Below the pieces are notes generated by a model, which searched no databases, had not been told where the DNA came from, and worked only from the letters and a program-made list of their open reading frames with translations. Made by a program: the position numbers and the translations under genes. 36,498 nucleotides of DNA from positions 51,661-88,158 of the forward strand of contig NW_014040386.1 in assembly GCF_001186125.1 (NCBI RefSeq), written 5' to 3'. Positions 26,055-28,715 of this stretch are shown in pieces (positions within the stretch are counted from its first letter, which is position 1; each line of letters starts with the position of its first letter). This DNA comes from Sphaeroforma arctica JP610 (lineage: Eukaryota).

Positions 26055-27740
26055 TTGCTAGCAGATCGAGTGATAGAAACTAACTATCAACAGACGCCAG
26101 TTAACTTGGCACTGCTAGCCGTAGACCAACATAACTGTGACGGATCGTTTAATAAAGTCAGAGTATGTTTAGATATGAGTCCAATAAATAAAATATTGCC
26201 GACTCATAGCTTTCACTTACCTCGTATTAACGAGCTACTGAGACGAATGGAAGGTGCTACGGTGTTTACATCCATAGACCTAACACAGGGGTATCATCAA
26301 GTGCAAATTTATGAACCCCATCGTAAGTACTTTAGTTTTACCTGGAAAGGTAAACAATACAGGTTTAGAGGTGCACCTTTCGGGTTACACTCTTCACCAG
26401 CATTCTTCCAACAAGAAATGGAGGAAATGTTTGCAGACATGCCTAACGTGCAAGTCTATATAGATGACATAGTCATCTTTTCTAAAACCAAGGGCGAACA
26501 CGCTGCATTAGTCAGACGAGTCCTTAAGAGACTCAACGAGCAAAACTTCAAGATTAACGAGAAGAAATGTCACTTCGCCATGAGCGAAATACAGCTCTTA
26601 GGTTACCGAATATCTGGGGAAGGTATTAAAATCGACCCCGGTAAGGTAGAACACCTGTTAGATTGGCGAACACCAACTACAGGAAGAGATGTTAACAGCA
26701 TGTGTGGGTTTGTAAACTTCTTTTCAGATGGAGTACCACACTTGGCTGATTATCTTAAACCCTTTGGACACTTAAGATATCATAAAGGCAAACTAGGAGA
26801 CTTGTGGACAAAAGAGTGTTATGACGCATTTAAAGCGCTCAAGCACGCAGTCCAACAAGCCCCTGTTGTACAAGGACCAGTCGATGACGTGCCTTTTGAA
26901 ATAGCAATGGACACATCAGACTTAGTACTCGGATGTGTACTATACCAGGTTATAGATAATAAACCTAGGTATATACAATTCTTTAGCCGAGCAATGAATG
27001 CATCACAGTTGAATTATCCAACTGTGAAGCAAGAGCTACTAGCCATAGTAGCAGATTTAACACACTTTCGAGATTACTTATACGGAACAGCATTTATGCT
27101 GATGTGTGATCAGAAATCTCTTCAATATATGAAAGAGATGAAACCCGACTCACAATTACTGAGTCGCTGGCATGATAGAATGTCAAAGTTTCATTTTGAT
27201 ATAAATCATCTGCCAGGAATACATAACCATTTACCGGATATGTTATCACGCTTTGTACTGGACTTTAATAAATCCGCACGTGAGTTACTAGCCACTGACT
27301 GGAAATGTAATCCCAGGTGGTTTGAACTGGCTCAAAAGGTATTTGGGCCACATACCATAGATATGTTTGCTGCACATTATAATGCACAACTATCGAATTA
27401 CAAGACTTTGAATCATCCTTTGGGAGACGCCTTTCAAATAGACCTCTCCAAACATAATGTGTGGGCTAATCCACCATGGCAGTTAATTGCCCAGCTAGTA
27501 AATTATGTTCATATACATAAAGCTACCATCACGCTGTGTTGCCCATTACGGAGTAAAGATCCATTGATACATTGCGAGCCAATATATTTAGATAGGGAAG
27601 TAGATACTTTTCTATATCAGGGTACCCGAGCCGTCCAGAAGACGCCCTGGAGACATACTATAATATGTCGTATAATTCCCATTGGAACAACCAAATGGAC
27701 CCCTTCTGAGACCTTCCTTAACAAGGTAAAAAAAACATAG
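26055..27740 (+). CDS. pol: Uninterrupted pol segment: reverse transcriptase - RNase H - N6-adenine DNA methyltransferase
   Basis: RT: IDLTQGYHQ, APFGL, VYIDDIVI. RH: DTSD, KQELLAIV, CDQKSL, HLPGIHNHLPDMLSR. MT: DWKCNPRW, IDMFAAHYN, GDAF, WANPPW. Part of a pseudogenised pol; the stop at 27738 is in frame with the next ORF. Confidence 0.93.
   Translation: MLADRVIETNYQQTPVNLALLAVDQHNCDGSFNKVRVCLDMSPINKILPTHSFHLPRINELLRRMEGATVFTSIDLTQGYHQVQIYEPHRKYFSFTWKGKQYRFRGAPFGLHSSPAFFQQEMEEMFADMPNVQVYIDDIVIFSKTKGEHAALVRRVLKRLNEQNFKINEKKCHFAMSEIQLLGYRISGEGIKIDPGKVEHLLDWRTPTTGRDVNSMCGFVNFFSDGVPHLADYLKPFGHLRYHKGKLGDLWTKECYDAFKALKHAVQQAPVVQGPVDDVPFEIAMDTSDLVLGCVLYQVIDNKPRYIQFFSRAMNASQLNYPTVKQELLAIVADLTHFRDYLYGTAFMLMCDQKSLQYMKEMKPDSQLLSRWHDRMSKFHFDINHLPGIHNHLPDMLSRFVLDFNKSARELLATDWKCNPRWFELAQKVFGPHTIDMFAAHYNAQLSNYKTLNHPLGDAFQIDLSKHNVWANPPWQLIAQLVNYVHIHKATITLCCPLRSKDPLIHCEPIYLDREVDTFLYQGTRAVQKTPWRHTIICRIIPIGTTKWTPSETFLNKVKKT
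27297..27690 (+). other. DIRS/phage-Dam-like N6-adenine methyltransferase domain
   Basis: SAM-binding-type DMFAA at 27360-27374 and catalytic NPPW at 27468-27479, followed by LIAQLVN...ITLCCP as in DIRS MT domains. Confidence 0.88.
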
Positions 27741-28094
27741 ATTCCACTCTCTACCCAATTGAACGTTAAGCAGCTCAAAGGCAACACAGCACTTGAAGTC
27801 TGTGCACAAGAAATACAATCTGCTAATGACACTACTGTTAAGAAGCATCAGTCTCTAGCTAGGACTCTGTTTAATAACATAAAGTCCAAGCCCGAGGTCT
27901 TTCAAACCCTATTTCTAAAGGGATTACTGAAAGACAATTCTGAAGCTTATACACATATAATGCGACTGTTTAATAAGTCAGGTGTATCAAACGCATACGA
28001 GTGCACTCATGACACTCATGCGTAAGAAGGGCAGGAGTCTGAAAACACTACAGACTTAGAGACCACGTAAGTGGATTCTCAACACCTTACCTAT

Positions 28095-28715
28095 TCTTGC
28101 TTGGCTGACGCAAACCAATAAGCTGAAGCACCAGAACGTAGTAGACGCACTTAAAGATGTTATGCGAAATGGGATCGCGCACCTAAGCTGGCAACTTTAG
28201 TTGACAGAGTGTATCAGTCATGTACAGACTGTGATCTCAATCAGATTGAGCGCTATGGGTTCGCACCGCTTAAGAGTGTGACTGAAGATGTTCTATGGCG
28301 CAGGGTCACCATTGACCTGGTTGACCTGCCCACGTCTGAGCACTCAGGCGACCGTTACGTATGCCATTTCTTTGATGTGGCGTCACGGTTCAACTTGCTC
28401 TATCCATTAAAGGATAAGAATACGCAGACCGTGGCAGAATTATGTTGCAAAGTCTTTGCTAACCACGGGTGGCCACGTATTATGTGCACTGATAACGGTA
28501 GTGAGTTCTGCAACGACGTAATGGAATTACTAGTACTCGTATCAGGCATATGCCATAAGAGAGGTGTGCCATAGAAGCCGCAAACGCAAGGCGCGAAAAA
28601 ACGCGCCATAGAAGACTTAAGTTCTTCTTGCGTACTGCATTGACGGATGATGCAGATGATTAGCCTAACCATTTTAAGTGGGTACAAACACAGATAAACG
28701 AGTGTGCTGATCCTG
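28095..28715 (+). pseudogene. DDE integrase of element A (zinc-binding region and core)
   Basis: Reads YQSCTDC, WRRVTIDLVDLP, FDVASRF, HGWPRIMCTDNGSEF and PQTQGA(K)KRA. The third acidic residue is mutated here but intact in the copies at about 16760 and 17290. Confidence 0.92.

What the first reader, a model, noticed from the sequence alone, without database searches (positions are those of the whole stretch)
26055..28715. Integrase-type (Gypsy) LTR retrotransposon with an N6-adenine DNA methyltransferase inside pol
Seen: one open frame runs RT-RNase H-DWKCNPRW..IDMFAAHYN..GDAF..WANPPW. A zinc-binding DDE integrase follows downstream, a protease lies upstream, and the element has direct TG..CA LTRs. 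Established: this phage-Dam-like MT domain after RNase H is characteristic of DIRS-type tyrosine-recombinase retrotransposons, which lack protease and DDE integrase, while ordinary Ty3/Gypsy pol is PR-RT-RH-IN. Inference: this is a PR-RT-RH-MT-IN lineage, either a Gypsy/DIRS chimera or a relic of their shared ancestry. It could put 6mA on its own cDNA inside the particle or at the insertion site, for example to evade silencing or mimic active chromatin. I do not know of a description of this architecture but cannot check the literature.
Basis: partly seen in the sequence, partly recalled or inferred. Interest (0 to 1): 0.92.

Follow-up and report, generated by a model that had tools for sequence, protein, structure and literature searches.

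The report
Decayed Gypsy retrotransposon carrying Dam methylase
This is a broken copy of a Gypsy-type jumping gene that carries a phage-like adenine-methylase domain between RNase H and integrase, a layout described in a May 2026 preprint, and its lineage likely also has an overlooked chromatin-binding chromodomain and likely primes its own copying.

Summary
An 8.7-kb element (21613-30345) has TG..CA LTRs, a 4-bp target duplication and a pol in the order PR-RT-RH-Dam-IN. One open frame covers RT-RH-Dam. This copy is dead: 8 in-frame stops, a 7-residue deletion in the Dam domain and a damaged integrase. Intact single-frame relatives exist (P0003, P0004), and the Dam domain is under purifying selection (dN/dS 0.20). 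It is not new: a May 2026 preprint describes DAM-LTR retrotransposons, including an ichthyosporean lineage. This element groups with Abeoforma members of that lineage in the RT and Dam trees, and its intact relatives do so in the integrase tree. This scan also met DAM-LTRs on other genomes. The trees favour capture of the domain by a Gypsy element over a shared-ancestry relic. Two additions: the preprint says this lineage lacks chromodomains, but its integrase tails form a divergent chromodomain (profile hits HP1, E=5e-10; the model matches SUV39H1, Z 7.5), weakest in this subfamily. The LTR and primer site also show a covarying 8-9-bp match that suggests Tf1/Sushi-type self-priming. Methylation activity is untested here; the preprint's E. 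coli assay was negative.

The parts
21609..21612 (+). Left target-site duplication (ACTT)
   Evidence: Sequence; contigs of 4 of 4 runs laid join 21609-21611 to 30349-30350, i.e. the empty site
21613..22364 (+). 5' LTR, 752 bp, TG..CA, TATA-like box at 22188
22251..22259 (+). Predicted self-primer site in the LTR (CTAACTTTA), 114 nt before the LTR end
   Evidence: Complementary to 22370-22378; same place and compensatory changes in the sister subfamily
22370..22378 (+). Predicted primer-binding site, 5 nt after the 5' LTR; no TGG tRNA-type site
22490..25345 (+). Likely decayed gag region with an internal duplication and an assembly gap near 23459-23478
   Evidence: Position only; no gag Pfam hit in the 4 ORFs scanned there; duplication 22787-23457 / 23478-24505
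25453..25910 (+). Aspartic protease, frameshifted near 25617
   Evidence: tblastn to P0004 and to the left copy's protease, which hits PF08284/PF13975
26175..26612 (+). Reverse transcriptase core (YIDD at 26457)
   Evidence: PF00078 E 1.5e-30; Gypsy clade in RT tree
26805..27191 (+). RNase H
   Evidence: PF17919, PF17917
27282..27695 (+). Dam-like N6-adenine methyltransferase domain (DMFA, NPPW); this copy lacks 7 residues that the other clade members have
   Evidence: PF05869 E 1.6e-5, phrog_111 E 0.002, 2449 relatives, alignments, dN/dS 0.20
27741..28070 (+). Variable linker between Dam domain and integrase, with in-frame stops
28071..28715 (+). Decayed zinc-finger plus DDE integrase core
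   Evidence: PF00665 E 6e-9; collinear with P0004
28716..29164 (-). Foreign piece replacing the integrase C-terminal (SH3-like) part; 28716-28958 is a reversed piece of a sister-subfamily LTR
   Evidence: 94% to 5394-5634, which is the left element's LTR end
29165..29476 (+). Truncated divergent chromodomain (to about 29284) and basic tail of pol
   Evidence: 91% to the whole tail at 9699-10022, which folds like a chromodomain
29601..29615 (+). G-rich polypurine-tract-like stretch
   Evidence: Sequence
29616..30345 (+). 3' LTR, 730 bp, TG..CA
30346..30349 (+). Right target-site duplication (ACCT, one mismatch)
15067..15688 (+). Second decayed RH-Dam piece of the same subfamily
   Evidence: 57% aa to the focal domain
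16933..20191 (-). Decayed PR-RT-RH-Dam-IN element of a second subfamily, close to P0013
   Evidence: tblastn of P0013, 41-61% on the long segments
710..5634 (-). Sister-subfamily copy: 5' LTR end at 5394, likely gag, PR, RT, RH, cut at the start of the Dam domain
8750..10337 (-). 3' end of another copy: integrase SH3-like domain, whole divergent chromodomain, 3' LTR

Best explanation
This is a decayed copy of a Ty3/Gypsy LTR retrotransposon with a PR-RT-RH-Dam-IN pol that groups with the ichthyosporean DAM-LTR lineage, likely arose when a chromovirus-type element captured a DIRS-type Dam domain, and in active copies would put 6mA on its own reverse-transcription intermediates. Shown: the domain order, LTRs, target duplication, decay, tree placement and purifying selection on the Dam domain. 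Predicted: a divergent chromodomain without a full aromatic cage at the integrase end, and tRNA-independent self-priming. Inferred and untested (about 50%): the domain, packaged with RT, methylates adenines in cDNA or RNA:DNA hybrid, and the host's AMT1 then maintains the mark so that new insertions stay transcribed. This last model is the preprint's.
For: Domain hits. Intact RT-RH-Dam-IN single frames: 15 non-redundant proteins among the 285 held, 11 of them in this clade. The three best named Dam hits are Abeoforma whisleri proteins. RT tree: clade of 14 at SH-aLRT 100, inside a 37-row group (95) with chromodomain-bearing Gypsy elements such as Rhizopus RO3G_04126; DIRS-like rows apart at 99. 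Integrase tree congruent: clade 94, enclosing group 98. Dam tree: 18 rows form one clade at 99. NPP[W/F] kept in 18 of 19 clade members. dN/dS 0.20, 95% range 0.11-0.35, over 128 codons. Chromodomain. Self-priming. Published 6mA and expression enrichment on DAM-LTRs in Abeoforma and Sphaeroforma.
Against: No activity test here, and the preprint's E. coli assay found no 6mA. Iyer et al. (passage) judge DIRS1 MTases likely inactive and PCIF1-derived. The closest intact relative P0004 has CPPW for NPPW. The focal Dam domain is below Pfam's cut-off and was not folded here. The host's lineage was not tested with host genes. The window subfamily's chromodomain has no Pfam hit of its own; a leave-out profile scores P0004 at E 1.6e-4 but P0003 at 0.18 and the truncated focal piece at 7.5. 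Its model leaned on an alignment of relatives, Z 7.5 is middling, and Foldseek found nothing at E<=0.001. The self-primer match is 8-9 bp, below the 10-bp rule of Neumann et al., and is not in the minimum-energy fold of either copy.
Confidence: 0.85

Rival explanations
1. Same element, but the Dam-like domain does not methylate DNA. It acts on or binds the element's RNA, like its relative PCIF1, or serves as an inactive nucleic-acid-binding module in the particle.
For: Negative E. coli assay. Iyer et al. place DIRS1 MTases with PCIF1 and call them likely inactive. 5 of 30 Dam-domain relatives hit PF12237 PCIF1_WW, best E 1.7e-7. P0004 lacks the catalytic Asn. Purifying selection does not distinguish catalysis from binding.
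Against: 26 of the same 30 hit PF05869 Dam, best E 9e-17. NPP[W/F] is kept in 18 of 19 clade members. DAM-LTRs carry more 6mA than other LTRs and co-occur with AMT1.
Confidence: 0.35
2. A relic of the common ancestor of Gypsy and DIRS elements that kept the methyltransferase lost in other Gypsy elements.
For: The domain sits after RNase H as in DIRS. Dam-bearing elements also occur in the sister group (P0016, P0030, P0040), and one clade of all their Dam domains is not rejected (AU p 0.22), so the capture may be older than this clade.
Against: RT and integrase nest well inside Gypsy, far from DIRS-like RTs. Of 117 new RT neighbours only 2 carry the domain. Dam-bearing LTR elements lie at several places in the RT tree and put the domain at different positions.
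Confidence: 0.04
3. An assembly chimera, or a DIRS fragment nested by chance in a Gypsy copy.
For: The region is a nest of decayed elements with an assembly gap and a foreign insert.
Against: One frame from protease to integrase, collinear with intact P0004. The RH-Dam junction recurs three more times in the window, in two subfamilies. Matching LTRs, target duplication and empty-site contigs.
Confidence: 0.01

Closest known systems
Ichthyosporean DAM-LTR lineage (Fernandez-Moreno et al., bioRxiv 10.64898/2026.05.21.726589; whole text read, supplements closed)
   Same: Ty3/Gypsy LTR element with a Dam domain in pol and an NPP motif. It groups with Abeoforma whisleri proteins in the RT and Dam trees, and through P0003/P0004 in the integrase tree.
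   Different: The preprint says the lineage 'lacks chromodomains'; here the Abeoforma proteins and relatives carry a divergent one. Self-priming and selection are not in its main text. Whether this exact family is in its supplements could not be seen.
DIRS-type tyrosine-recombinase retrotransposons
   Same: RT-RH-MT order and a homologous Dam domain.
   Different: Protease, DDE integrase, direct TG..CA LTRs and a target duplication are present; the RT is Gypsy-type.
Chromoviruses of the Tf1/Sushi and Tcn1 type (Neumann et al. 2019, PMC6317226; passages read)
   Same: Integrase followed by an SH3-like domain and a chromodomain; no tRNA primer site, predicted self-priming; nearest Dam-less RT neighbours often carry PF00385.
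   Different: Extra Dam domain. The chromodomain lacks the third cage position throughout the clade and, in this subfamily, also the first, with Phe for Trp at the second, like type II. In the RT tree it groups with Rhizopus-type elements, not with the rows named Tf2.
Chlorophyta DAM-chromovirus-like clade and EpiLTRs (same preprint)
   Same: Dam plus chromodomain in one Gypsy pol.
   Different: Described as a separate capture in green algae; no cytosine methyltransferase domain was hit here.

Membership tests
Ty3/Gypsy LTR retrotransposon | pol order PR-RT-RH-IN with DDE integrase | tested here: met
   (Dam inserted between RH and IN; focal copy decayed)
Ty3/Gypsy LTR retrotransposon | Direct TG..CA LTRs and short target duplication | tested here: met
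   752/730-bp LTRs, ACTT/ACCT, empty-site contigs
Ty3/Gypsy LTR retrotransposon | RT groups with Gypsy | tested here: met
   references were database neighbours, few of them named, not curated Repbase/GyDB sets
Ichthyosporean DAM-LTR lineage | PF05869-type domain with NPP motif inside a Gypsy pol | tested here: met
Ichthyosporean DAM-LTR lineage | One clade with Abeoforma/Pirum/Sphaeroforma elements | tested here: met
   Clade with Abeoforma whisleri P0005-P0007: RT 100, Dam 99, IN 94; no named Pirum or Sphaeroforma sequences were available
Ichthyosporean DAM-LTR lineage | Host is an AMT1-encoding ichthyosporean | not tested
   No genome is held; host inferred only from the element's relatives
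Ichthyosporean DAM-LTR lineage | 'Lacks chromodomains' (descriptive, as stated in the preprint) | tested here: not met
   A divergent chromodomain is found, also in Abeoforma P0006; this revises the description of the lineage and does not separate the element from it
Ichthyosporean DAM-LTR lineage | Raised 6mA and transcription of insertions | not testable with these tools
   No modification calls; only contigs were laid
DIRS retrotransposon | Tyrosine recombinase, no protease or DDE integrase, inverted or split repeats | tested here: not met
   Protease, DDE integrase and direct LTRs present; no recombinase hit among 34 window ORFs
Chromovirus | Chromodomain at the integrase C-terminus | tested here: met
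   Clade profile hits HP1 at E 5e-10, and its 60 best PDB hits are chromodomain-bearing proteins; model residues 79-136 match SUV39H1 at Z 7.5, rmsd 2.0 over 58. Strong for the clade, weaker for this subfamily
Chromovirus | Aromatic cage for methyl-lysine (type I) | tested here: not met
   Third position absent in the clade; first also absent in the window subfamily
Tf1/Sushi-type self-priming elements | Site 0-5 nt after the 5' LTR complementary over >=10 bp to the LTR | tested here: inconclusive
   9 bp at +5 and 8 bp at +6 in two decayed subfamilies, same LTR position, two compensatory changes; shuffles 52 and 260 of 2000 within the last 200 nt, 191 and 609 of 2000 over the whole LTR
N6-adenine DNA methyltransferase (active enzyme) | SAM-dependent 6mA formation on DNA | not testable with these tools
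   Motifs present; preprint's heterologous assay negative

The most novel reading that the evidence does not exclude
Ichthyosporean DAM-LTRs are not conventional Gypsy elements but self-priming chromoviruses that couple a writer to a reader: a cage-less chromodomain steers integration and the Dam domain seeds 6mA that the host maintains. The RH-Dam-IN layout may stem from one old capture shared with Dam-bearing chromoviruses outside ichthyosporeans. The anatomy alone (chromodomain about 80%, self-priming about 60%) is likelier than the functional coupling.
Probability: 0.2. Interest if true: 0.6.

Novelty: new member of a known kind. Interest (0 to 1): 0.3.

Why it matters
The class is only months old in print and its central claim, that a transposon writes an activating DNA mark on itself, is unproven. 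This copy adds no new class. It does correct the published anatomy of one lineage (chromodomain present), suggests how it primes, and gives a selection estimate and natural intact proteins for an assay. If the writer-plus-reader reading holds, it would show a transposon exploiting the 6mA system that animals' unicellular relatives keep and animals lost.

Tried and rejected
No whole genome is held, so copy number, intact copies and host genes were not examined. The ESM Atlas did not complete. Dam profiles found no solved relative by sequence: best E 1.3 and 0.16, both chance. Foldseek on the tail model gave no match at E<=0.001 and mostly Tudor rows. RT and RH dN/dS could not be computed because dS was saturated; integrase core gave 0.45 (0.27-0.77) and the tail 0.38 (0.06-1.8, uninformative). 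No RNA holder was listed; contigs cannot show expression or a start site. No tRNA genes in the window. Scans of genome and metagenome contigs gave 95 loci, of which 1 has RT-RH-MT-IN and is too short to hold LTRs, so self-priming could not be tested outside the window. The last cluster look-up timed out, so the hosts of P0030, P0036 and P0040 are unknown. One versus several Dam captures is unresolved (AU p 0.22). Trees used the quick LG+G4 search with SH-aLRT only and subsets: 16 DIRS-like rows, 24 of 55 Dam-less RT neighbours; the focal integrase was represented by P0003/P0004. Earlier-findings look-ups by sequence and by place were empty. Literature: 7 searches; 'DAM-LTR' is held by one paper only, and none of the listings reports a chromodomain or self-priming in ichthyosporean DAM-LTRs; only three papers were opened.

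Full report
Observation. The open frame 26046-27740 encodes RT, RNase H and a Dam-like domain. The Dam hit is E 1.6e-5, 25.1 bits, just under Pfam's cut-off, but close relatives pass it clearly (up to 53.8 bits). An integrase core follows in the same frame and a broken protease precedes it. The element runs 21613-30345 with TG..CA LTRs of 752 and 730 bp that differ at 51 of 721 columns, flanked by ACTT/ACCT. Contigs from 4 of 4 runs laid join the two flanks without the element (sides of 21-44 letters), which fits an insertion into a repeated LINE-like host whose endonuclease lies at 20997-21612.

State of this copy. It is dead. The frame from 25617 to 28601 holds 8 stops in 995 codons. Protease and integrase are frameshifted. 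The Dam domain lacks 7 residues, including a conserved Trp, that the other 17 clade members aligned have. From 28716 a reversed piece of a sister LTR replaces the integrase C-terminal part.

The architecture is a lineage trait. The RH-Dam junction recurs three more times in the window, in two subfamilies. P0003 and P0004 are single frames of 1376 and 1400 aa with RT-RH-Dam-IN, P0004 also with a protease hit. A Dam profile found 2449 relatives among 1.84 billion representatives, 150 listed. Of the 285 proteins held, 15 non-redundant ones have RT-RH-Dam-IN in one frame. The best named hits are three Abeoforma whisleri proteins. Between two decayed window copies the Dam domain has dN/dS 0.20 (0.11-0.35, 128 codons, 4 stop codons dropped); decay after insertion would push this value up, not down.

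Origin. In the RT tree (66 rows) the element lies in a 14-member Dam-bearing clade (SH-aLRT 100) with the Abeoforma proteins. That clade sits in a group (95) with mostly chromodomain-bearing Gypsy elements, including Rhizopus RO3G_04126; DIRS-like RT-MT proteins are apart (99). The integrase tree (46 rows) agrees, and the clade's Dam domains are monophyletic (99). So a Gypsy element took up a DIRS-type domain. A few elements in the sister group also carry RH-Dam-IN; whether they share the capture is open (AU p 0.22).

Known status. bioRxiv 10.64898/2026.05.21.726589 (whole main text read; supplements closed) reports DAM-LTRs as the first Dam domains in non-DIRS LTR elements and names an ichthyosporean lineage in Pirum, Abeoforma and Sphaeroforma. 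It finds more 6mA and expression on DAM-LTRs there, finds no activity in E. coli, and proposes methylation of RNA-DNA intermediates maintained by host AMT1. I found it before consulting the scan's notes; 8 of 8 notes shown point to the same class on other genomes. That the host is an ichthyosporean is my inference from the relatives only.

Addition 1: a chromodomain. The preprint says the lineage lacks chromodomains. The integrase tails of the clade align as a compact domain. Its 10-row profile hits HP1 at E 5e-10 and 75 PDB sequences at E<=1, the 60 shown all from chromodomain-bearing proteins. 7 of 10 members hit PF00385 at E<=1, best 4.2e-5, the first window row not at all. A profile from five canonical chromodomains scores 6 of 11 clade proteins at E<0.02, including Abeoforma P0006 at 4e-5, against a best decoy of 0.69 among 695 window segments; it misses P0003, P0004 and P0013. 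A profile without the window subfamily scores P0004 at 1.6e-4 and P0003 at 0.18. The AlphaFold model of window 9885-10292 (pLDDT 78, 15-row alignment) has an SH3-like half and a second half that matches SUV39H1 (Z 7.5, rmsd 2.0, 58 residues), Oxpecker (6.8) and Rhino (6.7) chromodomains. These Z values are middling and Foldseek gave nothing significant. The aromatic cage is incomplete, as in type II chromodomains (Neumann et al. 2019, passages), so methyl-lysine binding should not be assumed.

Addition 2: priming. No tRNA-type TGG follows the 5' LTR. Instead 9 nt at +5 are complementary to a site 114 nt before the LTR end. The sister subfamily (LTR end at 5394) has 8 nt at +6 matching a site 103 nt before its end, at the aligned position, with two pairs changed on both sides. 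Single-copy chance is 2.6% and 13% within the last 200 nt, and 9.6% and 30% over the whole LTR. The match is under the 10-bp rule used for plants and is not the minimum-energy fold. This fits Tf1/Sushi-type self-priming but is a prediction.

Mechanism. Shown: a Gypsy element whose pol keeps a conserved Dam domain next to RT-RH. Inferred: this position brings the domain into the particle with RT (established Gypsy biology, recalled), where it would meet cDNA and hybrid. I put DNA or hybrid methylation at about 50% and an RNA-directed or non-catalytic role at about 35%. The latter rests on the negative assay, the PCIF1 relationship (Iyer et al., PMC4738411, passages) and the CPPW of P0004.

Verdict. 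A real feature and a new member of a kind described in May 2026, with two modest corrections to that description. Interest 0.3.

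Noticed in passing
window 7998-13204: Copia-type element on the minus strand (gag PF14223, SH3 PF25597, direct repeats 7998-8187 / 13015-13204 at 95%) with the 3' end of a DAM-LTR copy (8750-10401) nested in it.
   Followed up: partly
window 20125-21612 and 30350-31000: LINE-like host with an APE-type endonuclease (PF03372, E 4e-6) split by the focal element; empty-site contigs exist.
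   Followed up: partly
window 14499-14881 / 15879-16276: Inverted pair of about 400 bp at 72% identity, around and inside another decayed DAM-LTR copy; likely old LTR pieces.
   Followed up: no
window 7256-7661: Two tandem 191-bp copies (94%), each with an internal palindrome of about 80 bp.
   Followed up: no
window 34412-35020: Likely host gene piece with weak tetraspanin-like membrane hits (E 5e-4) beside long AT/AC microsatellites and a 56-bp-unit repeat near 35051-35313.
   Followed up: no
proteins P0022, P0049; locus L038 5100-8400: Gypsy-like polyproteins with protease, APE endonuclease and Dam placed before a very divergent RT, then RH and integrase; L038 has the order MT-RT-RH-IN.
   Followed up: no
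L062, L064, L069: Marine metagenome contigs with the order RT-RH-IN-MT, i.e. Dam after the integrase.
   Followed up: no
L001 7001-8712, L005, L011: DIRS-like RT-(RH)-MT stretches inside long contigs of bacterial and archaeal MAGs (2.57 Mb, 778 kb, 223 kb); likely eukaryotic DNA assembled into the bins, not checked.
   Followed up: partly
protein P0074: Dam-like domain fused behind a dUTPase.
   Followed up: no
proteins P0211, P0214, P0219, P0243, P0247: Gypsy polyproteins with a precomputed PF02902 hit (recalled as a Ulp1-type protease).
   Followed up: no
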